DNA from: an uncultured bacterium
Lineage (GTDB): Bacteria; Verrucomicrobiota; Kiritimatiellia; CAIKKV01; CALHGX01
Direction: 5' to 3'
Assembly (NCBI GenBank): GCA_938031185.1
Contig: CALHGX010000024.1
Location: forward strand, 13,187-77,186
DNA length: 64,000 nt
Part shown: piece after piece, positions 14,610 to 42,583 of the stretch
Numbering within the stretch: the first letter of the stretch is position 1
How the letters are laid out: each line of letters starts with the position of its first letter
Translations under genes and position numbers: made by a program
Notes under the pieces: model-generated
Databases searched by the model: none
The model's input: only the letters and a program-made list of their open reading frames with translations
What the model was told of the DNA's origin: nothing

Positions 14610-14628
14610 GCAAGGAGTGGACCGGTAT

Positions 14629-15832: not shown

Positions 15833-15924
15833 CCGGGGTTTCGATCGGGCGAAAAGGTCTGCGCCCACAGTATTCATCATCCCGTATCCGCCTTCTGGCG
15901 ATTTTTCAAAAACGAGAATTCTTG

Positions 15925-15953
15925 TTGCACTGCCCCCCTAGGTGTCGTATAAA
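15925..15953 (+). promoter_or_regulatory. sigma-70-like promoter candidate for the response-regulator gene
   Basis: TTGCAC-N17-TATAAA, about 25 nt upstream of the ATG at 15978. Confidence 0.35.
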
Positions 15954-15977
15954 TGAAACTTGAAGGGGATGGTCTCA

Positions 15978-17348: not shown

Positions 17349-17454
17349 CCTTCTTTCGCAAAAACAAGAACTCAAGGATGACGCCAAGACGTTTTTCCCC
17401 TCGATTGACTGTCCATTTTTTGCTATTGCCGTCCCGTACGGTTGAATTGCCGCT

Positions 17455-17470
17455 TGGCATGCAGTCTGCT
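17455..17470 (+). promoter_or_regulatory. sigma-54 (-24/-12) type promoter candidate upstream of the major pilin
   Basis: TGGCATgcagtCTGCT in a lower-GC intergenic region, 81 nt before the pilin ATG. Canonical GG/GC spacing. Confidence 0.65.
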
Positions 17471-17551
17471 TTACGTGGAATGTGGGCGTCGTTGCGGCGG
17501 GTGCCGGAACGATGTTTTACCCGCAGTAGAGAAGAAAAAAAGGAGATGAAG

Positions 17552-17923
17552 ATGAAGAAGAGAACGAGATTGGGGTTCACGCTGGTTGAGATCATGATCG
17601 TGGTGGCCATCATCGGATTGCTGGCCGCGATCGCGATCCCCGGGTTCCTGAAAAACCGCCAGTTGTCGCAGAAGAACGCCTGCATCAACAACCTGCGAAT
17701 GATTGACGCGGCCAAGGAACAGTGGGCCATGGAAAAAGGCAAGAGCACCGGCGATGTCGTGGTGACCACGGAAGTGGACGAGTACATCAAAGGCCGTACT
17801 ACGCCGAGATGCCCTATCGGCAATACCAGCGCCAACTACACGTACAACGTGATCGGAGTCAGTCCCGCATGCAGCCAGACTGCCGCAGGACATGTGCTGC
17901 CTATCACGGAGACGACAACCTGA
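17552..17923 (+). CDS. prepilin-type N-terminal cleavage/methylation protein, probable major pilin
   Basis: Inside ORF 17039..17923. The ATG at 17552 lies 6 nt after aggag. The leader MKKRTRLG|FTLVEIMIVVAIIGLLAAIAIPGF has Gly-1 and Glu+5. The ACINNLRMIDAAKEQWAMEKG motif is common in PVC pilin-like proteins. It is followed by a strong terminator. Confidence 0.85.
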   Translation: MKKRTRLGFTLVEIMIVVAIIGLLAAIAIPGFLKNRQLSQKNACINNLRMIDAAKEQWAMEKGKSTGDVVVTTEVDEYIKGRTTPRCPIGNTSANYTYNVIGVSPACSQTAAGHVLPITETTT

Positions 17924-20182: not shown

Positions 20183-20187
20183 GAATC

Positions 20188-22721: not shown

Positions 22722-22722
22722 T

Positions 22723-27572: not shown

Positions 27573-27989
27573 ATGATGAACAAGACCAACCGAAGCGGGA
27601 TGACGCTGGTGGAGGTTACGGTCGCTTTGGCCATTCTGGCTTTCGTGCTGGGCGGCATCTATCAACTGATCGTCCAGGCCGGACGGCTGGGGCGGCTGGC
27701 GCGCGATCATTATGTCGCGGTGATCCTCGCCCAGAACCGCATTGAACGAGCGAAGGTTTTCGACTACCGAGACTTGCGCCTGCTCGCGGAAACCAATGTG
27801 CTGATGAACGCCAACGGCGCGCCGGACCTCGAAGGCCGATTCCGGCGCACGACAAGTATCAACACGAACTTCGCGCCCAATCTCACCGAAGTGGTTTGCA
27901 CCGTGGAAATCAAGGATTGGCGTACCGCCCAGTTTGCGGGTGAAGGGGAGCGCGTGGCCTCCCTCTTTACGCGGTATCTGGAACCATGA
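27573..27989 (+). CDS. prepilin-type minor pilin / pseudopilin (PilV/GspI-like size)
   Basis: 138 aa. Leader MMNKTNRSG|MTLVEVTVALAILAFVLGG with Gly-1 and Glu+5. Confidence 0.8.
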   Translation: MMNKTNRSGMTLVEVTVALAILAFVLGGIYQLIVQAGRLGRLARDHYVAVILAQNRIERAKVFDYRDLRLLAETNVLMNANGAPDLEGRFRRTTSINTNFAPNLTEVVCTVEIKDWRTAQFAGEGERVASLFTRYLEP

Positions 27990-30100: not shown

Positions 30101-30114
30101 AGGGGGAGCGCAAC

Positions 30115-31287
30115 ATGAACGCGATCGACTACAAGAGAGTACGCGACGGTTCGGCGCTGCTGACCGTCGCAGTGGTGCTGGGCGTGCTGGTGATCGTGGT
30201 AGGAGCCATGATGACGTACGCCCTCAACACACCCTACGTCACGCGGCGCATCGCCAATCAAATTCGCGCCAAGAACATCGCCGAAGCCGGCGCCAACGAG
30301 GCGTACAGCATCCTGGCGACCAACTGGTCCCTGCGGCACAATCCCAGCGCTTTCCCGGCCAAGGATTTTCGCGGAGGGCGGTTCGATGCCGATGTGCAGC
30401 CCATCGGAACGGCGCTGGCCATCATTACCAGCACGGGCATCTACCGAGAAGCCACGGCCGTGGCTGTGCTCGACATCCGCAATCACAATGCCTCAACCAA
30501 CGAAACGTCCACCAATAATCCGCCCAACGCGTTCAGCTACGCCATTGTTTGCGGCGGGCAGATGACGTGGAGCGGCAGCGGCCTTACGGATGTCTCCGGC
30601 GGATGGATCCACAGCAACTACAAATACAAGATGACCGGCAGCCAGGTGATTTCCGGCAACGTCTCTTGTGTGAACGAAATTTGGAGCGTCGGCTCGACGG
30701 AAATTCGCGGCACGGCCCGGGCGCCGAACTGGAAAGGCAGCAGCCCGGGGAACGTAACGGGTGGGGGCACGACCGCCCCGGTCCCGTTGGTGCCGATTCC
30801 GAACATTGTATTGGATCCCTACCTGCAATGGGCACAAGCAAACGGGCAGGTTTATAACGGCAACGTCCATATTTCCGGGGCGAGCGATTACGTGGTGCCC
30901 GGCGGCGTCATGTGGGTCAACGGCAACTTTAAATGGAGCGGGTCCGGCCGCTTCATCGGTTGCGTAATCGCCACCAAGGATATCAATTTCACCGGCAGCG
31001 GCCCGCAGGTGAAAGTCGGCCGGCTGCCGGCTTTCATCAGTCGCGACGGGAACATCGACATCAGCGGCAGCGGGAATATCAACGGCCTCATCTACGCCAA
31101 GACAGGCAGCTTCGACAAGAGCGGCAACGGGGTCATTCGCGGATCCGTCATCGCGGCGAACGAATTCCGAAAGACCGGTGGCGCGGACGTCTTCATCTAC
31201 GAAGACTCCACGCCCACACCACCCGGCGGCGGCGGGGAAACGCCACTCGGCGGAGATTTGGTCGGTGTCGCCGGCTGGCAGCAATAG
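30115..31287 (+). CDS. PilX-N-like pilus assembly protein with Gly-rich beta-helix-like C-terminal region
   Basis: Inside ORF 29728..31287. The ATG at 30115 lies 7 nt after aggggga. The N-terminus DGSALLTVAVVLGVLVIVVGAMMTYALN...AKNIAEAGANEAYSIL resembles the PilX N-terminal domain. There is no Gly-1/Glu+5 prepilin site. The C-terminus has repeated xGSGxxxG segments. Confidence 0.55.
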   Translation: MNAIDYKRVRDGSALLTVAVVLGVLVIVVGAMMTYALNTPYVTRRIANQIRAKNIAEAGANEAYSILATNWSLRHNPSAFPAKDFRGGRFDADVQPIGTALAIITSTGIYREATAVAVLDIRNHNASTNETSTNNPPNAFSYAIVCGGQMTWSGSGLTDVSGGWIHSNYKYKMTGSQVISGNVSCVNEIWSVGSTEIRGTARAPNWKGSSPGNVTGGGTTAPVPLVPIPNIVLDPYLQWAQANGQVYNGNVHISGASDYVVPGGVMWVNGNFKWSGSGRFIGCVIATKDINFTGSGPQVKVGRLPAFISRDGNIDISGSGNINGLIYAKTGSFDKSGNGVIRGSVIAANEFRKTGGADVFIYEDSTPTPPGGGGETPLGGDLVGVAGWQQ

Positions 31288-31453: not shown

Positions 31454-32488
31454 ATGCAGAAAGTTGTTGCGCTTGCCAAGCGATTCCGTCACGTCCCGTC
31501 GGAAGTGATCGCGCTGGACTTCGGCGCGTCAGCCACCAAGGCCGTGCGCGCCCGGCGGCACCGTAATTCCATCACCATCACGGCCGTCGACTTGCTGCCC
31601 CCCGCGCCGTTTGCAGTGACGGACAAATCCACGCCGGACGCGGCCGATGTCGCGTTTGAACTGCCCAAAGCGTTACGCTGTCGGTACGCGGCGCTGCTGT
31701 TGCCCGGCGAAGGCGCGGTCGTGAAACTGTTGAGTTTGCCCGGGCACGGACCGGAAAACCCGGAACAGATACAGGAACTCATGGGGCTTTCCGATTCCGC
31801 CGCCTATCGCATGGCCTACGAAAAGCTGCCGGAAGATCACGGTCGGTCGGAGACGCGATTCCTCGCTGTCGGTCTGCCCGAGAACCAGGCGCAATCGGCT
31901 CTGGGGCTTTTCCCGCAAGGCGCGCCGGCGGCTCGATCGATAGAGATTTCGGGCCTGGCAAGCCTGAACGCCTTCCTGTGCGGCCTGGGGAAAAACCTCA
32001 CGGAGCAGTGCGTGGCCGTCGCCGATTTCGGATACCGCATCACAACCCTCAGCATGGTCAACAAGGGCGCGATTGTGTTGATCCGCAAGTTCGACCTCGG
32101 AACCGAGCAACTCCACAGGGGCATCCAGAAGAAGTTTGGCGTGGACCCTGAAACCGCCGAAGGCATTGTGCTGGAACGTTCGTTTGACATCTCGGGCCTC
32201 GTCAAGGAAACGCTCCGGCCATTCGTGCAACAACTGGTCATCTCGCGCGATTTTGTTGAGCGGCGAGAAAATTGCAGAGTGGAAAGGCTCTACGCCTCCG
32301 GCGGCGCCGCGCACATGCGGGAATGGATGAATGACATCGCCTCTTCGTCCGGCCTGGAGGCGCAGGCGTGGAACCCCTTTGAAAACCTGTCTGTTGCCCC
32401 GGGCGCGATGTCCGAGCGCGTGCAGGGGCAGGAAGGACGTTTCGCGGCGGCCGTGGGAGGCGCGCTGGCATTCCTCGAGGCATCATGA
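31454..32488 (+). CDS. pilM: type IV pilus assembly protein PilM-like (actin-fold)
   Basis: 344 aa. VIALDFGASATKAVRAR matches the PilM phosphate-1-like motif. It is followed by PilN/O-like genes joined by ATGA overlaps. Confidence 0.7.
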   Translation: MQKVVALAKRFRHVPSEVIALDFGASATKAVRARRHRNSITITAVDLLPPAPFAVTDKSTPDAADVAFELPKALRCRYAALLLPGEGAVVKLLSLPGHGPENPEQIQELMGLSDSAAYRMAYEKLPEDHGRSETRFLAVGLPENQAQSALGLFPQGAPAARSIEISGLASLNAFLCGLGKNLTEQCVAVADFGYRITTLSMVNKGAIVLIRKFDLGTEQLHRGIQKKFGVDPETAEGIVLERSFDISGLVKETLRPFVQQLVISRDFVERRENCRVERLYASGGAAHMREWMNDIASSSGLEAQAWNPFENLSVAPGAMSERVQGQEGRFAAAVGGALAFLEAS

Positions 32489-33105
32489 GCGTGCGCGTCA
32501 ATCTTATTCTGGATTCCGAGATCCGCAGCGGACAACCCGTATGGGTCACGGGGCTGATCAAGGCCCTGCCCTTCGCGGCGCTGACCGTTTTCGCGCTGGG
32601 CGCTCTTTCTTTCTTCGGATCCTATACCGCGCTGCGCAGGGAAGTGGCCATTGCGAAAGAAGCCTGGCAGCAGACCGAGCCGAAGTACTTGGAAGCCGTG
32701 CGCTTGAAGGCCGGCATTGCGGTGGAACGCGAGGTGCTGCGAGAACTGAAGAGCTGGGGCAAGGCGCGGATCGAGTGGAGCAGCCAACTCGAAGAAATGG
32801 CGCGCCTTATGCCCGCCACCATCCAGCTTACGGAACTCATGATCATCCAGCGGTTGCAAATGGGACCCAAAGCGCCCGAGCGGGCCTTCGAGTTGCGGAT
32901 GTCGGGCAAAACCGGCGGGCTGCAACCAGAAGCCAATGTAACCGAATTTCAAAGCCTTTTCTTGATCCATCCGTTCTTCAATCAGACGGTTACGAACGCG
33001 GCGATTCCTGCCGGCTCCTTCAAACAGGATCCGTCGCGCAACGCCGCTCGGACCGATCGCGTCTTTGAACTGGTCGTCAAATACAGACCGCGCGCATTCG
33101 AATGA
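32485..33105 (+). CDS. pilN: PilN-like bitopic inner-membrane pilus alignment protein
   Basis: 206 aa with an ATGA overlap with pilM. It has a short cytoplasmic N-terminus (MSVRVNLILDSE), a single TM helix and a periplasmic coiled coil. Position and topology match PilN. Confidence 0.55.
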   Translation: MSVRVNLILDSEIRSGQPVWVTGLIKALPFAALTVFALGALSFFGSYTALRREVAIAKEAWQQTEPKYLEAVRLKAGIAVEREVLRELKSWGKARIEWSSQLEEMARLMPATIQLTELMIIQRLQMGPKAPERAFELRMSGKTGGLQPEANVTEFQSLFLIHPFFNQTVTNAAIPAGSFKQDPSRNAARTDRVFELVVKYRPRAFE

Positions 33106-33761
33106 AACTGCCGACTAACAGCAGGGAACGGGCGCAGGCGCTGACGTTGCTGGGTCTCGGCGCATTGGCCGTGCTCTATGCCGTTGTTCAGTTGGGCATC
33201 ATGCCCGTGCTCCGTTCCAACCGCGAAGCGCGTGTGCTCCTGCAGAATCTCCGCGAAAAAACCCGCAAGGCGCGAATTGAGCTGGCGACCCAACATGAAA
33301 CGCGCATGCAGCACGATCAAATCACGGCGGAAATCGAGGCGCTTTCCGAACAATTCGTCTTGAAGCCGGTCTTGGGATCATACGATCTGGGCGCGCGCGA
33401 GATGATCGAGAATGCCGTGAAGGACACGGGATTCCAGGTGGCCAGCCTCGTGGAAACGAGCTTCCAGGAAATGCCGCCAAAGAAAACGCAGACCCCTTAC
33501 GCTTTCCGCGGTTACGGAATGCAGGTGCGCGGAACCGCCTCCTACCACGATCTGATCCTTGTGCTCCGACGCATAGAAACACGGAACCCCTTCCTGACGA
33601 TCACCGAATTGACCATATCGCCCCAGGCCGAGGATCCGGAACGGCATCGCGTCGCATTCCAGGTGGTCTGGCCGGTCCGCGCGGAAGCGGCCGCGGTCCG
33701 GCTGCCGCCGGCCGCTGCGCCGGTCACTTCCCGGGCCGCTAATGATGGTTTCGCGTTATGA
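33102..33761 (+). CDS. pilO: PilO/GspM-like bitopic inner-membrane protein
   Basis: 219 aa with an ATGA overlap. It has a single TM helix, a coiled coil, and then a ferredoxin-like segment ending YHDLILVLRRIETRNPFLTITELTI, typical of PilO. Confidence 0.55.
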   Translation: MKLPTNSRERAQALTLLGLGALAVLYAVVQLGIMPVLRSNREARVLLQNLREKTRKARIELATQHETRMQHDQITAEIEALSEQFVLKPVLGSYDLGAREMIENAVKDTGFQVASLVETSFQEMPPKKTQTPYAFRGYGMQVRGTASYHDLILVLRRIETRNPFLTITELTISPQAEDPERHRVAFQVVWPVRAEAAAVRLPPAAAPVTSRAANDGFAL

Positions 33762-34384
33762 ACCGCCATTGGAACATACTCGTGCTGCTTGCGTGGGCCG
33801 GCGTGGCAATGACCGCCATGGGCGCAAGCCGTTTCGACGCTCCAGCCCCGGGAGAGACGCCTTCGCCAGCGATCACGGTGGATGTGGCGGAGCGTCCGCC
33901 CTTCTCCGGATCGGACGCCCCCCTGCCGGAAGGCTCGGAGGAAGACATCGCGACTCCGGATCATCCGGACCATTCCGAGATGGCGGCAACCGCGGCCGCC
34001 GTCGTGCAACCCGCGCCGGAAATCGCTTCAGACGCGGAGTCGGTCGCCGACTACCGCGATCCTTTTTGGCCGACGGGATATATCCCCAAGCGCCTTCGAA
34101 TATCTCGTTCAGCGGCCACGGCTGCGCGTGAATTTAATCCTCTCTTGCCCAACTGGGATGAGGCCCGCAAGCGGCTGTACGTTCGCGGCGTAAGCCGTGT
34201 CGGCCTGGGACGCGACGGGATTGAAGCCCGTTATCTTGGCATGGTCAACGGCCGCTGGGTTGAGGCGGGCGACATCGTCAGCGTGCGTTACGAGGGCAAC
34301 GTGTATCGATGGCAAATCCGCGCAATTGACGCACAGGGATTAAGATTGATCAGGCTGAATGTGACAAGTGAAGCGGAAGATTGA
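33758..34384 (+). CDS. PilP-like periplasmic protein
   Basis: 208 aa with an ATGA overlap. It has a signal peptide, a Pro/Ala/Glu-rich linker and a C-terminal beta segment VNGRWVEAGDIVSVRYEGNVYRWQIRAIDAQGLRLIRL resembling the PilP core. Assigned mainly by position. Confidence 0.4.
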   Translation: MNRHWNILVLLAWAGVAMTAMGASRFDAPAPGETPSPAITVDVAERPPFSGSDAPLPEGSEEDIATPDHPDHSEMAATAAAVVQPAPEIASDAESVADYRDPFWPTGYIPKRLRISRSAATAAREFNPLLPNWDEARKRLYVRGVSRVGLGRDGIEARYLGMVNGRWVEAGDIVSVRYEGNVYRWQIRAIDAQGLRLIRLNVTSEAED

Positions 34385-34407: not shown

Positions 34408-35049
34408 ATGAAACGACTCGAACGCAAAACAAGCGTATTTCGGCTGCTGCTTGCGTTAACAGCCATCCTTTGTGGGGGGGGCTGCGAAGATGAACCAGAA
34501 ACGAGCGAATTGGACCTCTTCTTCGCCCAGCACCCTTTCATTACGGATCCGCGTAATGACGTCACGCGCAAGCTCGACGTAGCGCCCCAAGACGCAACCG
34601 TCACCTACCCAGGGCAAAAAATCGCCTTCACCGTTCTAGGCGGCAAGAAGGATTATCGTTGGGCCGTCGCAATTCCGGGTCGCGGAACCATTCACTCCAC
34701 CGGACCAAATCAGGCAATTTACACCGTGCTGATTGTGGCGCCCAATACCGTTATCGCCTACGACGACGACGGCCGCACAGGCATTTCGGAAATAAAAGCC
34801 TCAACTTCCTCGCTGACCGCCTCCGCCAGCCCCAGTAGCCTTGCCGTGAATGGCGATATGGCCGTCATAACCGTTAGCGGCGGGTACCCGCCGTACGTTT
34901 GGACCGTGGTGGATGCCAGTCTTGGACACTTGGTGGGCGGAAACACGGGCGTTAGCGTGGTATACGTGCGCGATCATTCAGGAGACAACGCCGTGCAGGT
35001 GCAAGACCAGGCCGGCAACGTGGCAAACGTCGTCATAACGCAACCGTAA
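34408..35049 (+). CDS. probable lipoprotein with two Ig-like modules
   Basis: ORF 34381..35049. Start at ATG 34408. MKRLERKTSVFRLLLALTAILCGGGC is a signal sequence with Cys. Two similar beta modules are present (ATVTYPGQKIAFTVLGGKKDYRWAV and SSLAVNGDMAVITVSGGYPPYVWTV). Confidence 0.5.
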   Translation: MKRLERKTSVFRLLLALTAILCGGGCEDEPETSELDLFFAQHPFITDPRNDVTRKLDVAPQDATVTYPGQKIAFTVLGGKKDYRWAVAIPGRGTIHSTGPNQAIYTVLIVAPNTVIAYDDDGRTGISEIKASTSSLTASASPSSLAVNGDMAVITVSGGYPPYVWTVVDASLGHLVGGNTGVSVVYVRDHSGDNAVQVQDQAGNVANVVITQP

Positions 35050-35156: not shown

Positions 35157-38100
35157 ATGAAAAACAACACGTTCGGGATGCGGCGCGAGATAATGGGCCT
35201 TGCAGCCGGCTTTTTGAGTCTGCCGCTCCTCATCACCTTGCCGGCAAAAGCCCAGACCATTTCCGGCATCGTCATCAATCAGTCCGTCTGGGACAACCTC
35301 GGCGCCGTCAGCACGCCCCCGGGTGACGGTTCTGGGGCGGGGTCCATCATGGTGGGCGTTTGGCGCGCGCCGTCGCCTCCTATCGGCACCCCATTGGCCT
35401 CGACCTCCGTGGCCTATACGGCCACCATGCCCTTTCCGTACCTTTCAGAACATCCCTACGCGCTCGGACCCCTTGCGGTCTCGGGCGAGGTTTCGGTTGT
35501 GGCTTGGGTAGACGCGAACGCCGACGGCCTTCTCCAAGCCGGCGAGCCCCGAAGCGCGGCATTGGGCCTCACAATCGCAAGCGACAATGTGCCCAACATG
35601 AATCTTCTGGTCACGGATGACGCGGACGGCGATGGCCTGCCGGACTGGTGGGAAGCCCGCTGGATGGGGAACCTGGATTCCGGAGGTGGTGGAGACGACG
35701 ATCGCGACGGATTGACCAATAGGGAGGAATTCGATGCGTCGCGCCGGCACCCGGGGCTCGTCATGCTCAACCCGTTGAACTGGGACAGCGACGGCGACAA
35801 GATGGACGACAAATGGGAACTCGATTACTACGCCGGCGGGGCGGGTCTCAATCCGATGGGTAACGACGCCTATGACGACGCTGACGGCGATGGCCTGGTC
35901 AACTACTATGAATACCTTGGCGTGGACGGCAAGCCGCGCCTCGAACAGGATCCCAACGAAAACACGGGTGTCGCCCGCTCCACCGGTAGCGCCGACGACC
36001 TTAACCCCATCGATCTGGACACGGATGACGACGGCCTGGTGGATAGCTTCGAGACGGCGTGGTACGACCCGGCCAACGGCATAGATCCGAAGTCGGCCGG
36101 CAACCACGCAGCCGATCCGGACCGCGACGGCCTGACCAACTACCGCGAGCAGTGCCTGCTGACCGCCTTCCGGCAGGGCGCCGCAAACGACATCTGGACA
36201 GAGGGCAGGGCTTCTTTCCCAAAAAGAAGTTCTAATGGCATGCGCATTTTTGTGCCGCCTGTTCAACTTGGGGCCACAAACGAAGCCAGTATTTTCGACG
36301 ACATCTGGACCCTGCGGAACCACAAATGGACTGACCCCTCCACGGGGAGCGGGTACCCGGACGAACAGCCCGTAAGCGGACGCGACGGATGGGACACGGA
36401 TCGGGACCTCCTCCCTGACGGATGGGAAGTGGAGTTCAACCTCGACCCGCAGGACGGCGCGCTCTTTGTTTGGAACGGCAGCGCCTGGATTCCCAACCCG
36501 AATGGTTTCATTGGCGATCCGGATGGCGATGGCCTCGTCAACGCTGAGGAGTTCATGGGACAGGATGGCTGGCGCGATCCAAACGATCTGTATGTGCGGG
36601 GATCCGGCGACGAAACAAACCCCCATGAGCACAACTGGCGCCCGGACAGCACGCCCACCAACGGCACCGCGGTGGCTCGTCCCCCTTATTCCCGCTGGTG
36701 GCTTGCTGGTCACCGCGCGGACGGAACACTTGGCGCAGCCCTCCCCACCCTCAGCCTCGGCACGGATGATGGGCAGGATACGGATGACGACGGGTTGACG
36801 GACCGTTTGGAAATACAGCAGGAGTACGACGAACGGGTGCCCGCTTCCAGCCCGGTTCACTCGATGGATCCCTTTGTGCGTCGGTCCGCGCTGATCACAT
36901 CCCTGCACGGCATCCGCATTCCTGATCCGGAAGGAAGTTCAGACTATGGCTACCGTCCGGATCTCCATGCCCGGGCTTGGACGCTCGAATGTTCCGTTCT
37001 TTTAGCCGCTCCCGGCCGGTATGGGCATCTCATCCGCATTCCCGGCCCCGTAAACTTGGAAGGCTATGTGGATGTGACCTGCCAACTCAGCTTGTCGAAC
37101 GGCATCCCGCAAGTCGCGTTCCAAACATTGGGAGGCAAGTGGTATCGCGTGAGCGGTCTTCCTCTGCCCACTAACCGATGGGTGCATCTGTCCGGCGTGT
37201 TTCAACCAGCCGATAACACTTTGGCCCTTTACGTAGACGGTATCTTCGTCCAGCAGGACCACGTATTCGAAGAGGGAGTCTCCAGTTGGGTCTACGCCAG
37301 CGCCACGAACCCGGTTCTTGGGCTCTCCGAAGCGGCAGGGCCGTTGACCAACGCGGTGTGGCTGGATGAAGTCCGCATCTGGAACACGGCTCGTTCCCCG
37401 GCGGACATCGAAACGTATCGCTCTCGGCTCGTGCCTCCGGCGACGCCCGGCCTCGTATTTTACGCTCGCTTCGACGACGGTGGCGCAACGGCTGAGGACT
37501 TCACACGAAAAGCACGCTCAAGCCTGTTGCGGGCGTCGGATTACCTTTTCGGCGATCACGGATACGCCCTGTCCGGCGGTTTTGCCCTCGCCACCAACCA
37601 CTTTGCCCCCGTCATCGGCGTGGACGATCGCGGCGCCGATGACAGCGATGGCGACGGTCTGCCCGATGGATGGGAGCTCGTTCACCATCTCGACCCCTTC
37701 TCCGCTGAAGGTGCCAACGGCGCCCTGGGCGATGTTGAGCCGGGCCAGCCCGACGGCCTCTGGAACATCTACGAGTATTGGTCGCGAACCAATCCTCGCG
37801 CCGACGATAGCGACCAAAACGGCATCCTCGACACGGAGGAGGATCTGGACGGCGACGAAGTGCCCAATCTCTTGGAACAATGGCTGGGCGGCCGCCCGGA
37901 TATCGTGGACACCGATGACGACGGGCAAACCGATTCACAGGAACTGATGGCCGGCACCAATCCCGCCGATCCGTTGGATCCGCCCGTTTCGCGGGCCATG
38001 CGCTTTGGCGGATCCGCCGCGGACTACTTGGAGGTGCCCATCGGAGCCAACCAGCGATGCACCGCTTGGTCACTGGAAGCTTGGGTTCGCCCTCACGTCT

Positions 38101-40727
38101 TGCCCACCGCACGAGCTTTCGTGCTCCGGCGCGCCGTGCAGGCCCTCTCGGGAGGCGCCTTCGCGCTCAACTACGTGCTGGGCATCCAAACCAATGGCGT
38201 CGGCGGCGCTGTCCCCTTCGCAGGATATGTCCGCCCAGACGGGCGAGCCTACCTGGTGGCCGGCGGCTTGATCGAAACCGGACTCTGGACGCATCTTGCG
38301 GCAGCGTACAGCCCGGAAACAGCCACCTTGACCTTGTACACGAACGGCAGTCTTTGCGCCGCGACCAACTCCTTCTTCCTCTCTCCACCGATCAACGGAA
38401 AGGGTGGCGAAACGTTCCTCCGAATCGGCGAGGATTTCAGCGGCGAACTGGATGAAATCCGCCTCTGGAACATGGCCCGCAATGGCACCCAGATTGTGGC
38501 CGGCCGCGATGGCCCCGTTCCTACCAATTCCACCGGTTTGATCCATTATTTCCGTTTCGATGACGGACAGGCTACGGAAGACGTAATGCCTTTTGGATTC
38601 TTCCACCGCCCCTACGGCCCCCAGGACTTCACACATCCCGAGGACTGGCATACCGGGTGGGCGCATGCCGCGCGCATCATTGGGAACGTCCAATTCGTTG
38701 AGCCCGGCGCATTTCTTTCTCCTCCCTCCCTCCGCGTGACGTTGCTTCCCGCGGAAGCGCGCACGGCAGGCGCCGCATGGTCTGTGGACGGGGGGCCGTC
38801 CAACGCCAGCGGCGACACGGTGCCCGATTTGGCTCCCGGTCCGCACACGGTGACATACATGCCTGTGTCCGGATGGACGCCCCCCACCAACGAAACGGTC
38901 ATCCTGACGAACGGCGTCAACACGGCCATTGTCCGAACGTATTTGATGAACGGCCGCCTGCGCGTCGCCATCGAGCCCGCCGGGGCGCGGGCCGCAGGGG
39001 CTCAGTGGGCAGTGGACGGAGGCCCCTGGCTGAACAGCGGCACCGTCGCCAGCAACCTCACCGTCGGTTTACATACCATCACCTTCCGCACCATCACCCA
39101 CTGGCTGGCCCCGTCTCCGCAGGCGGTGACCATCAACGAGAATGCCGAAACCAGCCTCCTGATCTGGTATACGGAAATCACCGGCGGCATCCGAGCTTAT
39201 ATTGAGCCGGAGGCCGCCCGTGTAGCCGGTGCCCGATGGCAGGTGGACGGCGGCCCCGCCCAATCCAGCGGCGCTCTCGTCACCAATCTGCCGCTGGGAA
39301 GTCATTTGGTTTCCTTCACGGATATTCCACCCTGGATCACACCAGCCGCCGTGTGGGTGGACTTGACCAACGCCGCACCGGTCGTGCTGACCGGGACGTA
39401 CTCGCAAGTGACAGGACTCTACGTCGTGATCCAGCCGACCAACGCCGTGGCGGATGGCGCCATGTGGCGCCTGGCTGGCGGCCAGTTCACGAATAGCGGA
39501 ACGCTGCTTGTCCTCGCCCCCGGCCTTTACACCGTGGAGTTTGCGACCGTACCGGGTTGGGCGGCTCCCCCCAGCGTGACGGTCGGGGTGACGAACGATA
39601 TGACCACAATCGTCGAAGGACTCTACTATCAATACACCGTCCTCGCCCTGAACGGAACCAATGTCGGCCAGGTGCTCAAGCCGCGCGGCATGGCCTTCAA
39701 CTCCCGCCGCTACTTGCATGTGGCGGACAGCGGCAACCACCGCATCCACGTGCTCGACCCGCGCACAGAAACGTGGACCGTTATCGGGGGGCCAGGCACC
39801 AACGCCGGTCAGTTCAACCAACCCTTCGGCGTGGCTTTCGACCCTTGGGATAATTTGTACGTGGCAGACGGAAACAACCACCGCGTGCAGCGCCGCGATG
39901 CACAGACCGGCAACTGGGTCAGTTGGGGGGTCTACGGGACATCCAATGGCCAGTTTATCGTGCCTCATCGCATTGTGGCCGACGCGTGGACGAACCTCTA
40001 CGTATCCGATCATTTCAATCATCGTGTGCAGAAACGCGATGCCAGCGGAGTTTGGTCCACACTCATCGCGCCCGGCTTCAACGCCGGCTATGTGCGAAAC
40101 CCGTCCGGCTTGGCCATGGACGCGTCCAATCGCCTCTATGTCACGGACTATGCCGTGCTCTCCACCACCACGGTAAGCCGTGTTCAGCAGTTCGCCACCA
40201 ACGGCATGTTCCTCGGACGTATTGCCGGCTCCGGCGCGGACGAAGGAGGGCTGAACAACCCGCGCGACATCAAGCTGGGTTTTGAAACGAATCTCTTCAT
40301 CGCGGATATGGACAACCATCGCATCGTGGTCGGGCCCCTCGGCACGGGGCAGTGGACAACGGTGATTGGCGGTGATGCCCTCCGTTTCCCTGAAGGTATT
40401 GCCGTCAGCCCCCGCGGCTACCTGTATATTGCCGATACGGGCAATGACCGGGTGCTGAAACTCGCCTATTCCCCCACCGCCCTGAGCGCCCCGCTTGTGC
40501 TTTCCGGCGTCGGCAGCTTGCCGGGAACAAATGGATTGGTCATTACATGGACCGGGGAGGAAAACTGGCTCTACGCCGTCCAGTACACGGAAGACTTGCT
40601 GACGACCAATGGATGGACCGACCTCTCCGGATGCGTGAATCTGCCGGGAGTGGCGGGGCCGATGAGCTGCACGGACACCTCCTATACCGGCGCCGTATGG
40701 AGAGCCTATCGGGTTCTAGCTTACTGA
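35157..40727 (+). CDS. giant secreted multidomain protein: TSP3-type Ca-binding repeats, two LamG-like lectin domains, four PEGA/Ig-like repeats, six NHL repeats
   Basis: 1856-aa ORF after ggaggggg, with signal peptide ...ITLPAKA|QT. About 12 DxDxDGxxDxxE motifs are present (DADGDGLPDWWE, DSDGDKMDDKWE, DADGDGLVNYYE, DTDDDGLVDSFE, DPDRDGLTNYRE ...). Two LamG_3-like cores end in LDEVRIWNTARSPADI and LDEIRLWNMARNGTQI. There are NHL-like blades (YVADGNNHRVQRRD, YVSDHFNHRVQKRD, FIADMDNHRIVV, YIADTGNDRVLKL). Confidence 0.85.
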   Translation: MKNNTFGMRREIMGLAAGFLSLPLLITLPAKAQTISGIVINQSVWDNLGAVSTPPGDGSGAGSIMVGVWRAPSPPIGTPLASTSVAYTATMPFPYLSEHPYALGPLAVSGEVSVVAWVDANADGLLQAGEPRSAALGLTIASDNVPNMNLLVTDDADGDGLPDWWEARWMGNLDSGGGGDDDRDGLTNREEFDASRRHPGLVMLNPLNWDSDGDKMDDKWELDYYAGGAGLNPMGNDAYDDADGDGLVNYYEYLGVDGKPRLEQDPNENTGVARSTGSADDLNPIDLDTDDDGLVDSFETAWYDPANGIDPKSAGNHAADPDRDGLTNYREQCLLTAFRQGAANDIWTEGRASFPKRSSNGMRIFVPPVQLGATNEASIFDDIWTLRNHKWTDPSTGSGYPDEQPVSGRDGWDTDRDLLPDGWEVEFNLDPQDGALFVWNGSAWIPNPNGFIGDPDGDGLVNAEEFMGQDGWRDPNDLYVRGSGDETNPHEHNWRPDSTPTNGTAVARPPYSRWWLAGHRADGTLGAALPTLSLGTDDGQDTDDDGLTDRLEIQQEYDERVPASSPVHSMDPFVRRSALITSLHGIRIPDPEGSSDYGYRPDLHARAWTLECSVLLAAPGRYGHLIRIPGPVNLEGYVDVTCQLSLSNGIPQVAFQTLGGKWYRVSGLPLPTNRWVHLSGVFQPADNTLALYVDGIFVQQDHVFEEGVSSWVYASATNPVLGLSEAAGPLTNAVWLDEVRIWNTARSPADIETYRSRLVPPATPGLVFYARFDDGGATAEDFTRKARSSLLRASDYLFGDHGYALSGGFALATNHFAPVIGVDDRGADDSDGDGLPDGWELVHHLDPFSAEGANGALGDVEPGQPDGLWNIYEYWSRTNPRADDSDQNGILDTEEDLDGDEVPNLLEQWLGGRPDIVDTDDDGQTDSQELMAGTNPADPLDPPVSRAMRFGGSAADYLEVPIGANQRCTAWSLEAWVRPHVLPTARAFVLRRAVQALSGGAFALNYVLGIQTNGVGGAVPFAGYVRPDGRAYLVAGGLIETGLWTHLAAAYSPETATLTLYTNGSLCAATNSFFLSPPINGKGGETFLRIGEDFSGELDEIRLWNMARNGTQIVAGRDGPVPTNSTGLIHYFRFDDGQATEDVMPFGFFHRPYGPQDFTHPEDWHTGWAHAARIIGNVQFVEPGAFLSPPSLRVTLLPAEARTAGAAWSVDGGPSNASGDTVPDLAPGPHTVTYMPVSGWTPPTNETVILTNGVNTAIVRTYLMNGRLRVAIEPAGARAAGAQWAVDGGPWLNSGTVASNLTVGLHTITFRTITHWLAPSPQAVTINENAETSLLIWYTEITGGIRAYIEPEAARVAGARWQVDGGPAQSSGALVTNLPLGSHLVSFTDIPPWITPAAVWVDLTNAAPVVLTGTYSQVTGLYVVIQPTNAVADGAMWRLAGGQFTNSGTLLVLAPGLYTVEFATVPGWAAPPSVTVGVTNDMTTIVEGLYYQYTVLALNGTNVGQVLKPRGMAFNSRRYLHVADSGNHRIHVLDPRTETWTVIGGPGTNAGQFNQPFGVAFDPWDNLYVADGNNHRVQRRDAQTGNWVSWGVYGTSNGQFIVPHRIVADAWTNLYVSDHFNHRVQKRDASGVWSTLIAPGFNAGYVRNPSGLAMDASNRLYVTDYAVLSTTTVSRVQQFATNGMFLGRIAGSGADEGGLNNPRDIKLGFETNLFIADMDNHRIVVGPLGTGQWTTVIGGDALRFPEGIAVSPRGYLYIADTGNDRVLKLAYSPTALSAPLVLSGVGSLPGTNGLVITWTGEENWLYAVQYTEDLLTTNGWTDLSGCVNLPGVAGPMSCTDTSYTGAVWRAYRVLAY
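38727..39632 (+). repeat. four tandem ~75-aa (~228-bp) intragenic domain repeats (PEGA-like)
   Basis: Protein residues 1191-1492 form four repeats. Each has the pattern [LI]xPxxAxxAGAxWxVDGGPxxxSGxxxxxLxxGxHTxxFxxxxxWxxPxxxxVxxxxxxxxxxxxxY. The repeats begin SLRVTLLPAEARTAGAAWSVDGGP, RLRVAIEPAGARAAGAQWAVDGGP, IRAYIEPEAARVAGARWQVDGGP and LYVVIQPTNAVADGAMWRLAGGQ. Confidence 0.6.
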
Positions 40728-40756: not shown

Positions 40757-42583
40757 ATGTATAGAAAGGACAACGCAGTGAAAAACAGATGGATACGCTC
40801 TCTCGCCTTGATCGGCCTGGGTATGATGCTCGTCTCTGGCCTCTCGCGTGCCCAGGAGCCATCGGTCACCGAATCGCCGGCCGCCCTGCCGCCATCCGCG
40901 GCACAGGCAGATGCGCCGGCCCCGCCGCCCGTCACGCCGCCGGAAGAAGAACTGCTTCCCGTATCGCCCGGCGACGTGAGCGTGTCCGGCGCCACCGTGA
41001 CGTCCAGCACCCAAGGGAATAACCTGATCTCCATCACCCTGGACGACGTGCCGTTGCAGGACGTGGTGCGCATGTTTACGCGCATATCGGGCGCCAATAT
41101 CATTGCCAGCGCCTCCAACCTTCAGGGGACGGTCAGCGTCAACATACAGGACGTGGATTGGAAAACTGCCCTGGAATCCATCTTGGACATGCACGGTCTG
41201 GCGCTGACCGAGAAAACACCGGGATCGCGGGTCTACAGCATCACCGCTAAGGCTGAAGGAGCCCCGGAACCGCTGATTTCCGAAACCATCAAGCTCACCT
41301 ATGCCGCCGTGGCCAACGTGTTGCCAGTCGTCCAGTCTCTCGTGGGGGCCAACGGTTCAGTGGTGCCGTTCGCCTCGGGCAACTCGCTCGTGGTGCGCAC
41401 CACCGCCGCCGGGCTGGCGGAAATCAAGAATGTGATTTCTTCCATAGACCTGCCCCGCCGCCAGGTTTATATCGAGGCCAAGTTCATGGAACTCAGCGAT
41501 CAGGCCATCAAGGACCTCGGCATTAATTGGAAATCCCTCCAGGGGGTCAACATTACCCTCGGACAGCTCAGCCGCTCCTTGGAGTCCAACAAGACGCAGA
41601 CTCGGGATAAGCGCCGCGACAGCAGTTTGAGTCAAGTCAACAGCGTCTCCCATGTCGATCAGGTTAACGAGCGGTTCGATATCAACGGGCAACCCTATGA
41701 GGAAGTAACGAAGTCCTACGTGGAATCCCCTCCGGGGTCCGGAAACTATCTCCTGCAGGAAACCCGCACCCCCACCCGGCTGCGCGACGATACGATTGAC
41801 CAATCGCAAAAGGCGACACTGGATATCTTGGACGCGAATTCTTCTTTGAAGACCGTCACGGACATCCGAACGGCCGTTCTCAGCATGAGCGATTTCACGG
41901 TCATGTTGAGTGCACTCAAGCAGATCAACGGCATCACCATCGTCTCCAATCCAAAGATCATCGTGGCCAACGAGGAAACGGCCACGATCCACATCGGTGA
42001 ACGACAGCGGCCGTTCATTTCCTCCGTCACCCCGGGCCAGCAGGGCATCGCGCCGGTCGTCACCTATAACCCGGGTGACGCGGTAGATTTCGGTGTGAAG
42101 GTGAACGTGACGCCCACCGTCAACACAGACAACAACATCACCGTCAAAATCGAACCCCAATTGACCCGGTTCGTCAACGACGCCGTCGCGCCGAACGGTC
42201 AAACCTATCCGATTATCGCCACTAAAACCATCAAGACCGTTTTCAGCCTCGAAAGCGGCAAGACGGCCGCCATCGGCGGGTTGACGGAGACGAGCGAACG
42301 AGACGCCGTCAGCAAGATTCCCCTCCTCGGCGACATTCCGCTAGTCGGCAAATACCTGTTCTCGCACACGCACAAGGAAAAGACCCAGCAGGAAACCATC
42401 ATTTTCGTGACGGTCTGGGTCTCCGAGCCGGAAGGCATCGGCAAGGAGACTGGATTGCCCGAAGATTCAGACCTCGTGCACCGCCACATGCTCCGTCAGG
42501 ACGCTTCCCGAGCCGAATCGCGCAGAAAGATTGAAGGCATGAGGAAGGCGGCTCAGGATAAAGAAGCGGCCGCTACGCCCTAG
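40757..42583 (+). CDS. pilQ: secretin (PilQ/GspD family outer-membrane channel)
   Basis: 608-aa ORF. An alternative start is GTG 40778, 6 nt after aagga. It has a signal peptide, a Pro/Ala-rich linker, N0/N1-like domains and a C-terminal secretin core (ITIVSNPKIIVANEETATIHIGE...SKIPLLGDIPLVGKYLF). Confidence 0.9.
   Translation: MYRKDNAVKNRWIRSLALIGLGMMLVSGLSRAQEPSVTESPAALPPSAAQADAPAPPPVTPPEEELLPVSPGDVSVSGATVTSSTQGNNLISITLDDVPLQDVVRMFTRISGANIIASASNLQGTVSVNIQDVDWKTALESILDMHGLALTEKTPGSRVYSITAKAEGAPEPLISETIKLTYAAVANVLPVVQSLVGANGSVVPFASGNSLVVRTTAAGLAEIKNVISSIDLPRRQVYIEAKFMELSDQAIKDLGINWKSLQGVNITLGQLSRSLESNKTQTRDKRRDSSLSQVNSVSHVDQVNERFDINGQPYEEVTKSYVESPPGSGNYLLQETRTPTRLRDDTIDQSQKATLDILDANSSLKTVTDIRTAVLSMSDFTVMLSALKQINGITIVSNPKIIVANEETATIHIGERQRPFISSVTPGQQGIAPVVTYNPGDAVDFGVKVNVTPTVNTDNNITVKIEPQLTRFVNDAVAPNGQTYPIIATKTIKTVFSLESGKTAAIGGLTETSERDAVSKIPLLGDIPLVGKYLFSHTHKEKTQQETIIFVTVWVSEPEGIGKETGLPEDSDLVHRHMLRQDASRAESRRKIEGMRKAAQDKEAAATP

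What the first reader, a model, noticed from the sequence alone, without database searches (positions are those of the whole stretch)
35157..40727. 1856-aa TSP3 / LamG / PEGA-like / NHL protein encoded between the alignment-complex genes and the secretin: candidate pilus-associated adhesin or secreted cargo
Domain order read from the sequence:
- a signal peptide
- about 12 thrombospondin-type-3-like calcium-binding motifs (DxDxDGxxDxxE) in two blocks (about 35613..36836 and 37632..37976)
- two LamG_3-like lectin domains (about 36939..37436 and 37989..38561)
- four tandem PEGA-like repeats
- a six-blade NHL-type beta-propeller region (about 39654..40466)
- a ~85-aa C-terminal beta domain with two Cys

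The gene is co-directional with the PilP-like gene and the secretin and lies between them, with short gaps and its own strong SD. PilY1, the usual large pilus-associated adhesin, also ends in a beta-propeller and binds calcium. However, it has a different fold family and a different genomic position, with the minor pilins. This protein may be a functional analogue displayed by the filament or exported through the secretin.
Basis: partly seen in the sequence, partly recalled or inferred. Interest (0 to 1): 0.7.

Follow-up and report, generated by a model that had tools for sequence, protein, structure and literature searches.

The report
Giant lectin-like adhesin in pilus operon
A 1856-residue secreted, calcium-binding, lectin-and-propeller protein is encoded just before the outer-membrane pore gene of a type IV pilus operon, and this position is conserved in related uncultured PVC-group bacteria, so it is probably an unstudied adhesin exported or displayed by that machine.

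Summary
ORF 35157..40727 (+) is intact and encodes 1856 aa. HMMs, two AlphaFold models and Foldseek support this order: signal peptide, N-terminal beta-sandwich, about 13 TSP3-type DxDxDG motifs in two blocks, two LamG_3 domains, four ~76-aa beta-sandwich repeats, a six-blade NHL propeller and an ~85-aa C-terminal beta-sandwich with two Cys.

Two details are wrong. No HMM supports the name "PEGA". The upstream gene is not PilP-like but a lipoprotein with two repeated segments, guessed to be Ig-like (34408..35049). The PilP-like gene is 33758..34384.

The protein belongs to an unnamed family of about 78 members (1.6 to over 5 kaa) in Kiritimatiellae, Lentisphaerae and Verrucomicrobiota MAGs. 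Every close member whose secretin-side flank is on the contig (10 independent loci besides the window's own) lies next to the secretin of a pilMNOP..Q operon. NHL-type members lie before the secretin and FG-GAP-type members after it. Three distant relatives are not secretin-linked. Three related operons found through the secretin lack the giant, so it is an accessory part.

Best reading (0.4): a dedicated adhesin exported or displayed through the secretin by the pilus machine. No experiment exists. I judge it a new variant of a known kind, of moderate interest.

The parts
35157..40727 (+). Gene for the 1856-aa giant protein. The mature protein is ~196 kDa with pI 4.5.
   Evidence: An identical protein, P0001, is in public assemblies.
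35157..35252 (+). Sec-type signal peptide (aa 1-32, cleavage after AKA). It has no lipobox.
   Evidence: Sequence. Apart from the signal peptide no hydrophobic segment was found.
35253..35612 (+). N-terminal beta-sandwich domain (aa ~33-152). It has no Pfam family.
   Evidence: AlphaFold strands at model residues 4-124 with pLDDT 85-93. No Pfam hit at E<=10.
35619..36812 (+). TSP3-type calcium-binding block 1. It has 8 strict DxDxDGxxDxxE motifs plus one degenerate motif.
   Evidence: The Asp/Gly positions are invariant across 51 homologs.
36954..37511 (+). LamG_3 / concanavalin-A-like domain 1 (aa ~600-785).
   Evidence: Pfam Laminin_G_3 matches in 2 stretches. AlphaFold beta-rich region at model residues 579-752. 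Foldseek matches to LamG and pentraxin folds.
37641..37943 (+). TSP3-type calcium-binding block 2. It has 2 strict motifs plus 2 looser ones.
   Evidence: TSP3_bac best stretch at aa 829-848.
37989..38561 (+). LamG_3 / concanavalin-A-like domain 2 (aa ~945-1135).
   Evidence: Pfam best stretch at aa 955-1113. PDB 4dqa (an uncharacterised protein chain; named a putative carbohydrate-binding protein) matches aa 1012-1141..
38721..39638 (+). Four tandem ~76-aa beta-sandwich repeats with consensus P..A...GA.WRVDGG.W..SG..V..L..G.HTV.F....GW..P. They are unclassified and are not PEGA by HMM.
   Evidence: Negative searches.
39633..40472 (+). Six-blade NHL beta-propeller (aa ~1493-1772).
40464..40724 (+). 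C-terminal ~85-aa beta-sandwich ending ...RAYRVLAY, with Cys1826 and Cys1838. This module recurs at the extreme C-terminus of many unrelated large proteins.
34408..35049 (+). Probable lipoprotein (signal peptide ...LCGGGC|EDE) with two repeated segments, guessed to be Ig-like. It is the real upstream neighbour and is conserved next to the secretin with or without the giant.
   Evidence: No Pfam or PDB sequence hit.
33758..34384 (+). PilP-like protein, assigned by position and by reading the sequence (signal peptide, low-complexity linker, conserved C-terminal part). No HMM hit.
   Evidence: It is conserved at this position in L001, L009-L014, L023, L027 and L028.
33102..33761 (+). PilO/GspM-like protein.
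   Evidence: Pfam T2SSM_b 1.2e-5. NCBIfam GspM 7.6e-8.
32485..33105 (+). PilN-like bitopic protein, assigned by position. Its start overlaps the pilM stop by 4 nt.
31454..32488 (+). PilM (actin-like ATPase fold).
   Evidence: Pfam PilM_2 3.2e-19. TIGR01175.
40757..42583 (+). Secretin of PilQ type with STN/N0, Secretin_N and Secretin domains. The true start may be the GTG at 40778.
   Evidence: (TIGR02515 PilQ is the best hit, 1.6e-55).
27573..31287 (+). Three minor (pseudo)pilin genes: 138 aa (27573-27989), 704 aa (27986-30100) and 390 aa (30115-31287).
12882..17923 (+). PilB-type ATPase with MshEN domain (12882-14609), PilC (14578-15807), sigma-54 response regulator of PilR type (15960-17348) and a 126-aa prepilin (17546-17923).

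Best explanation
The gene encodes an accessory extracellular adhesin that is functionally coupled to the type IVa-pilus-like machine of a PVC-group bacterium, probably a Kiritimatiellota relative.

**Proposed mechanism**
1. The Sec system exports the protein to the periplasm.
2. There its modules fold as beads on a string: about 13 Ca2+-binding TSP3 loops, two LamG lectin-type domains, four beta-sandwich spacers, an NHL propeller and a C-terminal beta-sandwich.
3. The filament assembled by PilB/PilC/PilMNOP then carries or pushes the protein through the PilQ-type secretin encoded 29 nt downstream. This is how operon-encoded cargos such as TcpF, CofJ (type IVb pili) and SslE (T2SS-beta) are exported.
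4. Outside the cell it stays cell- or filament-associated and binds glycans or other surfaces through the LamG and propeller modules, in a calcium-dependent way.

**Shown here**
- The domain architecture.
- The signal peptide.
- Operon membership.
- Strict conservation of adjacency to the secretin across homologs down to about 40% identity.
- Optional presence of the giant among sister operons.

**Inferred**
- Passage through the secretin.
- Extracellular location.
- Ligand type.
- Calcium dependence.
For: **Machine context**
- The window holds a complete set of PilB, PilC, PilR-like regulator, pilin, three minor pilins, PilM, PilN-, PilO- and PilP-like genes and a PilQ-type secretin.
- The giant lies in the same direction, between the lipoprotein gene and the secretin.
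- Only one terminator-like match lies inside or beside the gene on its strand (35471, early in the ORF). Such matches are no more frequent in the region than in shuffled sequence (13 found vs 15.9 expected).

**Synteny**
- NHL-type family members lie directly before the secretin in L009, L010/11, L012, L015/16, L002, L023, L027 and L028.
- FG-GAP-type members share aa 1-1500 and lie directly after the secretin in L013/14 and L018.
- Adjacency persists where the minor-pilin genes are divergent (L010, L027) or not visible (L012, L013, L018).

**Accessory status**
- Secretin-seeded loci L020, L025 and L026 keep the lipoprotein-secretin pair but lack the giant. This fits a cargo or adhesin, not a core part.
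- Family members range from 1610 to at least 5254 aa. They swap C-terminal propellers (NHL, NHL+FG-GAP, FG-GAP) and gain VWA modules. Such variation is typical of surface adhesins.

**Protein features**
- It has a Sec signal peptide and no other hydrophobic segment.
- It is very acidic (pI 4.5).
- It carries lectin-type folds.

**Precedents**
- TcpF and CofJ are operon-encoded proteins exported by type IVb pili (PMC10120004, PMC9565799, PMC6048534).
- SslE is exported by a dedicated T2SS (PMC5012682, PMC3707838).
- InvL is an adhesin and a T2SS substrate (PMC9245377).
Against: - No experiment exists for any family member. All homologs come from metagenomes, and those that carry a name have only generic ones.
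- The mature N-terminus runs straight into a beta-strand in the model. There is no free N-terminal peptide of the kind TcpF and CofJ use to dock on the minor pilin.
- At 196 kDa (over 500 kDa in relatives) it would, to my knowledge, be larger than any known secretin cargo.
- The C-terminal module also occurs on many proteins with other domain contents. This could point to a general sorting route independent of the pilus.
- Distant relatives with a similar architecture are not near a secretin: P0082 in L017, P0091 in L019, and L003 on its downstream side.
Confidence: 0.4

Rival explanations
1. Pilus-tip adhesin, a functional analogue of PilY1/PilC. The giant docks on the minor-pilin priming complex (138-, 704- and 390-aa pilins), rides out on the tip of the filament, and mediates calcium-modulated attachment.
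For: - It has adhesive modules followed by a C-terminal beta-propeller, plus calcium-binding motifs, as PilY1 does. P0012 even adds a VWA domain, as P. aeruginosa PilY1 has (own knowledge).
- No PilY1-type gene was found among the window ORFs scanned.
- In the window and in L009 the minor pilin genes lie directly upstream in the same direction.
- Modular pilins carrying lectin or vWA modules are a precedent (PMC8179133).
Against: - No Neisseria_PilC/PilY1 domain is present. The propeller is a six-blade NHL and is replaced by FG-GAP in part of the family. A conserved docking propeller is therefore unlikely.
- The gene follows the secretin, not the minor pilins: these are divergent in L010 and L027 and not visible in L012, L013 and L018.
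- Sister operons lack the giant.
- The 704-aa minor pilin could itself be the tip adhesin.
Confidence: 0.2
2. The protein is co-regulated with the pilus but exported independently of it. It is a surface or matrix protein that uses another route, for example one that recognises the shared C-terminal ...FYRV-type module. It sits in the operon only so that adhesin and pilus are made together.
For: - The C-terminal module lies at the extreme C-terminus of many proteins of 60-5784 aa with diverse domains: NHL, SBBP, LamG, Big_9, Peptidase_C25, VWA and cadherin. This is the pattern of a sorting or anchoring tag.
- Distant relatives work away from any secretin gene.
Against: - FG-GAP-type family members lack this C-terminal module yet are still glued to the secretin gene.
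- The order P222-giant-secretin is kept across lineages at about 40% identity.
- No known sorting family matches: NCBIfam gives no T9SS C-terminal domain hit, there is no PEP-CTERM-like hydrophobic tail, and the ScyF hit covers only the NHL part (130 vs 350 bits).
Confidence: 0.25
3. Structural accessory of the secretin. Together with the upstream lipoprotein, the giant forms a periplasmic or surface-exposed collar, cap or anchor around PilQ, comparable in role to TsaP or to pilotins.
For: - The gene is adjacent to the secretin on either side.
- The lipoprotein partner (34408..35049) is conserved next to the secretin. A single-domain version accompanies a distant giant in L017.
- TSP3 repeats occur in OmpA-type envelope proteins (own knowledge).
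Against: - The giant is dispensable in related operons.
- Its size and modules vary widely (1.6 to over 5 kaa).
- There is no peptidoglycan-binding or membrane-anchoring module, and the lectin and propeller modules point outwards.
Confidence: 0.1

Closest known systems
TcpF (Vibrio cholerae TCP) and CofJ (ETEC CFA/III): operon-encoded proteins exported by type IVb pili
   Same: - Each is a Sec-exported soluble protein encoded inside the pilus operon.
- Each leaves through the pilus secretin and acts in colonisation or adhesion (PMC10120004, PMC9565799, PMC6048534).
   Different: - They are small proteins exported by type IVb systems (own knowledge).
- They dock on the minor pilin through a flexible N-terminal peptide. 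The giant is 1856 aa, sits in a type IVa-like operon, and its mature N-terminus is structured.
- There is no sequence similarity.
SslE/YghJ with E. coli T2SS-beta (and PulA with the Pul T2SS)
   Same: - It is a very large dedicated substrate whose gene is linked to those of its secretion system. Operon membership and the neighbouring pilotin lipoprotein gene are from my own knowledge.
- It ends up surface-associated and is linked to glycan recognition and processing (PMC3707838, PMC5012682, PMC4014459, PMC3542185).
   Different: - SslE is a lipoprotein M60 metalloprotease. The giant has no lipobox and no recognisable catalytic domain.
- The machine here has PilM and PilN-like genes and a PilQ-type secretin, not GspL, GspC and GspD.
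PilY1/PilC type IVa pilus tip adhesins
   Same: - They are large Sec-exported proteins with N-terminal adhesive modules, calcium binding and a C-terminal beta-propeller.
- They are associated with a type IVa machine.
   Different: - The propeller family differs: six-blade NHL or FG-GAP here, not the PilY1 domain.
- The gene is tied to the secretin, not to the minor pilins.
- The giant is optional among sister operons.
Akkermansia muciniphila Amuc_1098-1102 cluster (Amuc_1100 'pili-like' protein)
   Same: - It is a PVC-group pilus-like cluster in which lineage-specific, signal-peptide-bearing proteins of unknown fold are encoded together with an FtsA/PilM-like gene and the secretin.
- Amuc_1100 is localised on the outside of the cell (PMC5332112).
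- The window's secretin weakly matches the Amuc_1098 family model (93 vs 750 bits).
   Different: Amuc_1100 is about 30 kDa and shares no domains with the giant. No giant LamG/TSP3 protein is described in that cluster.
Bacterial 'LamG-like jellyroll fold domain-containing' / TSP3_bac giant proteins of Lentisphaerae and relatives (P0088-P0116)
   Same: They share the TSP3 block plus LamG_3 units (34-37% identity over about 17% of the query).
   Different: - They lack the four repeats, the NHL propeller and the C-terminal module.
- The one locus examined is not near a secretin.

Membership tests
PilY1/PilC tip adhesin (Pfam Neisseria_PilC, PF05567) | C-terminal PilY1-type beta-propeller domain | tested here: not met
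   No PF05567 hit at E<=0.1. The propeller is a six-blade NHL.
PilY1/PilC tip adhesin (Pfam Neisseria_PilC, PF05567) | Gene linked to the minor-pilin operon | tested here: not met
   Minor pilins lie upstream in the window and in L009. They are divergent in L010 and L027 and not visible in L012, L013 and L018, while the giant always stays with the secretin.
PilY1/PilC tip adhesin (Pfam Neisseria_PilC, PF05567) | Physical location at the pilus tip with the minor pilins | not testable with these tools
   This needs microscopy, pull-down or multimer prediction.
Operon-encoded cargo of a type IV filament machine (TcpF/CofJ/SslE/PulA kind) | Sec/Tat signal peptide and a soluble periplasmic intermediate | tested here: met
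   Signal peptide at aa 1-32. No lipobox and no other hydrophobic segment.
Operon-encoded cargo of a type IV filament machine (TcpF/CofJ/SslE/PulA kind) | Gene inside or beside the machine's operon, conserved across relatives | tested here: met
   All 10 independent related loci of close homologs with the secretin side visible are adjacent to the secretin.
Operon-encoded cargo of a type IV filament machine (TcpF/CofJ/SslE/PulA kind) | Export depends on the assembly ATPase, pilins and secretin | not testable with these tools
   This requires mutants and fractionation.
Operon-encoded cargo of a type IV filament machine (TcpF/CofJ/SslE/PulA kind) | Flexible N-terminal docking peptide (TcpF/CofJ subtype) | tested here: not met
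   Model residues 4-12 (protein aa 33-41) already form the first beta-strand.
Laminin_G_3 (PF13385) concanavalin-A-like domain proteins | HMM match above the gathering score and a jelly-roll fold | tested here: met
   97.5 bits vs 27.6, in two stretches. Foldseek matches to LamG, LNS and pentraxin folds.
NHL repeat beta-propeller (PF01436) | HMM match and a six-blade propeller | tested here: met
   84.8 bits vs 20. TRIM71 5e-34. TM 0.85-0.90 to six-blade structures.
Bacterial TSP3 repeat (PF18884) | HMM match above the gathering score; DxDxDGxxDxxE calcium loops | tested here: inconclusive
   The HMM gives 19.5 bits, below the 25-bit cut-off. Ten strict motifs are present and are invariant in homologs. 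Homologs pass the cut-off.
PEGA domain (PF08308) | HMM match | tested here: not met
   No hit for the protein, for each repeat, or for 23 repeats of the family at E<=10.
Thrombospondin signature domain (type 3 repeats wrapped on an L-type lectin domain) | Structural match of a TSP3-plus-lectin unit to thrombospondin structures | tested here: not met
   No thrombospondin entry appears among the 50 best Foldseek PDB matches of the aa 30-1165 model. Coordinates could not be inspected.
Known C-terminal sorting tags (T9SS CTD, PEP-CTERM) | Match to the tag model; for PEP-CTERM, a C-terminal transmembrane helix | tested here: not met
   NCBIfam returns only ScyF (NHL part only, 130 vs 350 bits), ScyE and CglD. 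There is no hydrophobic tail and no Pfam hit for the C-terminal domain.
Type IVa pilus machine (context) | PilB, PilC, PilM/N/O/P, PilQ, prepilins | tested here: met
   - TIGR02538 PilB scores 655.7 bits, the best hit, just under the 675.65 cut-off.
- PilC, PilM_2, a GspM/PilO-like gene, TIGR02515 PilQ (best hit) and four prepilin N-termini are present.
- PilN and PilP are assigned only by position and sequence reading.
- No PilT was seen among the window ORFs scanned.

The most novel reading that the evidence does not exclude
In these PVC bacteria, a lineage that includes polysaccharide degraders (own knowledge), the type IV pilus-like machine doubles as a dedicated exporter or presenter of giant calcium-stabilised lectin proteins of 1.6 to over 5 kaa. 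The proteins are docked through the small lipoprotein encoded beside the secretin. These would be by far the largest secretin-dependent passengers known, and together they would form a pilus-coupled device for capturing glycans or surfaces.
Probability: 0.15. Interest if true: 0.8.

Novelty: new variant of a known kind. Interest (0 to 1): 0.5.

Why it matters
Type IV pilus and type II secretion operons are among the best-studied envelope machines. No described pilMNOPQ-type operon that I know of, or could find in the paper library, carries a conserved giant passenger gene beside the secretin.

If the link is functional, three things follow:
- It would extend the size range of what secretin channels handle.
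- It would give PVC bacteria a candidate attachment or glycan-capture factor.
- It would offer a natural system for asking how pilus machines select cargo.

The small lipoprotein (34408..35049) and the shared C-terminal module are further untested handles on envelope sorting in the PVC group.

If the link is only co-regulation, this is one more modular surface adhesin.

Tried and rejected
- **PEGA identity of the four repeats.** Rejected. There are no HMM hits even at E<=10, for single repeats or for 23 family repeats. A profile search against PDB found nothing meaningful.
- **PilY1 membership.** Rejected, because the domain is absent.
- **CglD gliding lipoprotein and ScyF PEP-CTERM protein (NCBIfam hits).** Rejected. 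They match only the TSP3 part and the NHL part respectively, and score far below cut-off.
- **Thrombospondin-signature-like unit.** Not seen in the Foldseek top 50.
- **The upstream gene as PilP.** Rejected. The PilP-like gene is 33758..34384. The neighbour 34408..35049 is a lipoprotein with two internal repeats.
- **Genome-contig scan with the giant.** It gave only 3 real relatives.
- **Homolog search with the lipoprotein.** It gave only 2 relatives, because the method depends on shared words.
- **Cluster look-ups.** They returned no organism names.
- **PDB sequence searches with the lipoprotein and the PilP-like protein.** Nothing found.
- **Literature searches.** Six searches combining Kiritimatiellae or Kiritimatiellota, LamG, TSP3, secretin, pili and adhesin terms found no description of such a gene.
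- **Terminator and promoter scan.** No more matches than in shuffled sequence.
Full report
**1. The observation**

The window is 59-66% G+C. ORF 35157..40727 (+) is uninterrupted for 1856 codons. It has a strong Shine-Dalgarno sequence (GGAGGGGG) 1 nt before the ATG. Its stop lies 29 nt before the next ORF. An identical protein, P0001, is present in public assemblies.

- **Signal peptide.** A Sec-type signal peptide without a lipobox.
- **TSP3 motifs.** Ten strict D.D.D[GK]..[DN]..E motifs lie at aa 155-552 and 829-929. One more looser motif appears and two degenerate ones are visible by eye. Pfam TSP3_bac is sub-threshold here (19.5 vs 25 bits) but clearly positive in homologs. The Asp/Gly positions are invariant in a 52-sequence alignment.
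- **LamG.** Laminin_G_3 matches twice, E 1.1e-27.
- **NHL.** E 2e-24, and TRIM71 NHL at 5e-34 in the PDB sequence search.

Two AlphaFold2 models built on family alignments add the rest.

- **Residues 1150-1856** (pLDDT 87.9). The model contains four ~76-aa beta-sandwiches and a propeller. The propeller superposes on six-blade TRIM71/Thin/Pizza6 structures with TM 0.85-0.90 normalised by the target. A final beta-sandwich carries Cys1826 and Cys1838.
- **Residues 30-1165** (pLDDT 81.8). The jelly-rolls match PAPP-A LamG, BACOVA_03559, neurexin LNS and pentraxin folds.

'PEGA' is not supported by any HMM test, nor by a profile search of PDB. The four repeats are an unclassified beta-sandwich family.

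The mature protein is about 196 kDa with pI 4.5. It has no hydrophobic segment beyond the signal peptide.

**2. The neighbourhood**

The window carries a full type IVa-pilus-like gene set.

| Coordinates | Gene |
|---|---|
| 12882-14609 | PilB with MshEN domain (TIGR02538, 655.7 bits, best hit) |
| 14578-15807 | PilC |
| 15960-17348 | sigma-54 response regulator |
| 17546-17923 | 126-aa prepilin |
| 27573-31287 | three minor pilins of 138, 704 and 390 aa |
| 31454-32488 | PilM |
| 32485-33105 | PilN-like |
| 33102-33761 | PilO/GspM-like |
| 33758-34384 | PilP-like |
| 34408-35049 | lipoprotein |
| 35157-40727 | the giant |
| 40757-42583 | PilQ-type secretin |
| 43490-45904 | UvrB |

The genes from pilM to the PilP-like gene overlap by 4 nt each.

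The gene just upstream of the giant is not PilP-like. It has a lipoprotein-type signal (LCGGGC|EDE) and two repeated segments that I guess to be Ig-like. It has no Pfam or PDB sequence match.

The PilP-like assignment of 33758-34384 rests on its position and on reading its sequence (signal peptide, linker, conserved C-terminal part). It has no HMM hit.

No convincing terminator or promoter separates the lipoprotein gene, the giant and the secretin.

**3. The family and its genomic context**

A search of 5.8 billion proteins returned about 78 strong homologs of 1610-3215 aa. Most carry no name. The named ones come from Kiritimatiellae, Spartobacteria and unclassified bacterial MAGs. Contigs from the genome collection are labelled Verrucomicrobiota, Lentisphaerae and PVC group.

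BLAST coverage shows a conserved core at aa ~30-1500: N-terminal domain, TSP3, LamG, TSP3, LamG and the four repeats. The C-terminus varies between NHL plus C-terminal module, NHL plus FG-GAP, and FG-GAP alone. Some members gain VWA modules.

I examined every context the tools allowed.

| Group | Loci | Position |
|---|---|---|
| NHL-type | L009, L010/11, L012, L015/16, L002, L023, L027, L028 | order pilM-N-O-P / lipoprotein / giant(s) / secretin, where the flanks are visible |
| NHL-type, contig ends inside the giant | L001 | same upstream order; secretin side not visible |
| FG-GAP-type | L013/14, L018 | immediately after the secretin of a pilMNO(P)Q operon |

- In L015, five consecutive LamG-containing genes fill the slot.
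- In L001 and L002 the gene exceeds 5000 codons.
- The adjacency holds where the minor-pilin genes are divergent (L010, L027) or not in view (L012, L013, L018).

Three distant relatives are not secretin-linked.

- P0082 (33% identity) has no secretin nearby.
- P0091 shares only the TSP3/LamG part and has no secretin nearby.
- L003 (36% identity) has an oxidoreductase gene downstream. Its upstream side is not on the contig.

Searching from the secretin instead gave four loci whose upstream sequence is informative. L023 has the giant. L020, L025 and L026 have the lipoprotein gene directly before the secretin and no giant.

So the lipoprotein-secretin pair is the constant, and the giant is an accessory inserted beside the secretin. 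A single-domain version of the lipoprotein also precedes the distant giant P0082, which lies away from any secretin. This hints that the lipoprotein is a partner of both.

**4. The C-terminal module**

An exhaustive HMMER search with aa 1770-1856 found 89 representative proteins. In nearly all of them the match lies at the very C-terminus. Their lengths range from 60 to 5784 aa.

A Pfam scan of 35 of them shows NHL, SBBP, LamG, Big_9, Peptidase_C25, VWA, cadherin and DUF11 contents. The module itself has no Pfam family. The consensus ends ...RFYRV.

This is the pattern of a shared sorting or anchoring domain. However, many of the short hits are contig fragments that may belong to the same family.

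**5. How it most likely works**

*Shown*
- It is a Sec-exported, soluble, acidic, modular protein made of calcium-binding loops, lectin-type jelly-rolls, spacers and a propeller.
- It is embedded in the pilus operon.
- Its adjacency to the secretin is conserved across about 40% identity and across a change of side.
- It is optional among sister operons.
- Its size and terminal modules turn over quickly.

*Inferred*
- It is an extracellular adhesin whose export or display needs the pilus machine and its secretin.

I put 0.4 on export through the secretin as a dedicated passenger that stays surface- or filament-associated. The precedents are TcpF and CofJ for type IVb pili (PMC10120004, PMC9565799, PMC6048534), SslE for T2SS-beta (PMC3707838, PMC5012682) and the adhesin InvL (PMC9245377).

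The rivals are:
- tip display like PilY1 (0.2);
- co-regulation with an independent export route, perhaps through the C-terminal module (0.25);
- a structural collar of the secretin together with the lipoprotein (0.1).

Arguments against the preferred reading:
- The mature N-terminus is structured, so there is no free docking peptide.
- The size would be unprecedented for a secretin passenger.
- The C-terminal module is shared with many other proteins.
- Unlinked distant relatives exist.

**6. Comparison with known systems**

- It is not a PilY1. The domain is absent, the propeller belongs to a different family and is interchangeable, and the gene is tied to the secretin and not to the minor pilins.
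- It is not homologous to TcpF, CofJ, SslE or PulA.
- It resembles those proteins only in being a Sec-exported product of a gene in or beside the machine's operon.
- The nearest positional analogue in the PVC group is the Akkermansia Amuc_1098-1102 cluster. There, lineage-specific secreted proteins, including surface-located Amuc_1100, are encoded together with a PilM/FtsA-like gene and the secretin (PMC5332112).

Six literature searches found no description of a giant LamG/TSP3/NHL gene in a pilus operon.

**7. Verdict**

The functional link to the pilus/secretin machine is strong on comparative grounds. The mode of that link (cargo, tip or pore accessory) is open and needs experiments.

I class it as a new variant of a known kind (an operon-encoded accessory adhesin or cargo of a type IV filament machine) built from known domains, with moderate interest (0.5).

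Noticed in passing
window 34408-35049 (+); also L020 25-684, L025 449-643, L026 9539-9946, L017 9596-9988: A small probable lipoprotein with 1-3 repeated segments, guessed to be Ig-like and matching no Pfam or PDB sequence, is the constant upstream neighbour of the secretin, with or without the giant. A one-domain version precedes a distant giant relative that lies away from any secretin. It may be a pilotin-like or docking partner.
   Followed up: partly
window 27986-30100 (+): A 704-aa minor (pseudo)pilin has a prepilin N-terminus followed by about 670 aa with no known domain. It is flanked by 138-aa (GspI/PilV-like) and 390-aa pilin-like genes. The trio or part of it recurs in L009, L010 and L027. 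It could itself be a tip adhesin.
   Followed up: partly
window 40464-40724 (+) and proteins P0121-P0207: The ~85-aa C-terminal beta-sandwich ends in an ...(F/A)YR(V/I) motif. It recurs at the extreme C-terminus of many proteins with unrelated domain contents and has no Pfam family. It may be a sorting or anchoring tag.
   Followed up: partly
L015/L016 (contig_18043, 1.12 Mb): Five consecutive LamG-containing genes (3131, 483, 209, 437 and 1610 aa) fill the slot between the lipoprotein-like gene and the secretin. A reverse transcriptase (RVT_1) and an integrase fragment lie just upstream of pilM, and IS elements lie downstream.
   Followed up: no
L001 (from ~5905 to the contig end) and L002 11-15775: Family members in these two MAG contigs exceed 5000 codons (at least 5254 aa in L002). 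They lie directly before the secretin where that side is visible.
   Followed up: partly
window 26034-27272 (-): A PAS-PAS-HisKA protein without a detected ATPase domain lies divergent from the minor-pilin genes. A similar PAS protein lies close upstream of pilM, on the opposite strand, in L012. It may be a sensor for the pilus genes.
   Followed up: no
window 18032-25979: Two large TPR proteins, GT2 and GT4 glycosyltransferases and a B12-binding radical SAM enzyme lie between the pilin gene and the minor-pilin genes.
   Followed up: no
L026 2657-6109 (-): Two tandem PilB paralogs, each about 60% identical to the window's PilB, lie divergent from a pilM..secretin operon that lacks the giant.
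   Followed up: no
window 3168-6740 (-) and 1042-3321 (-): A 1190-aa ORF has no Pfam or NCBIfam hit. It overlaps the start of a 759-aa ORF with a weak PA14 match and a YbgF-like TPR tail. Neither was examined further.
   Followed up: no
window 47020-49335 (+): A Ser/Thr protein kinase with a double zinc-ribbon segment lies downstream of uvrB.
   Followed up: no
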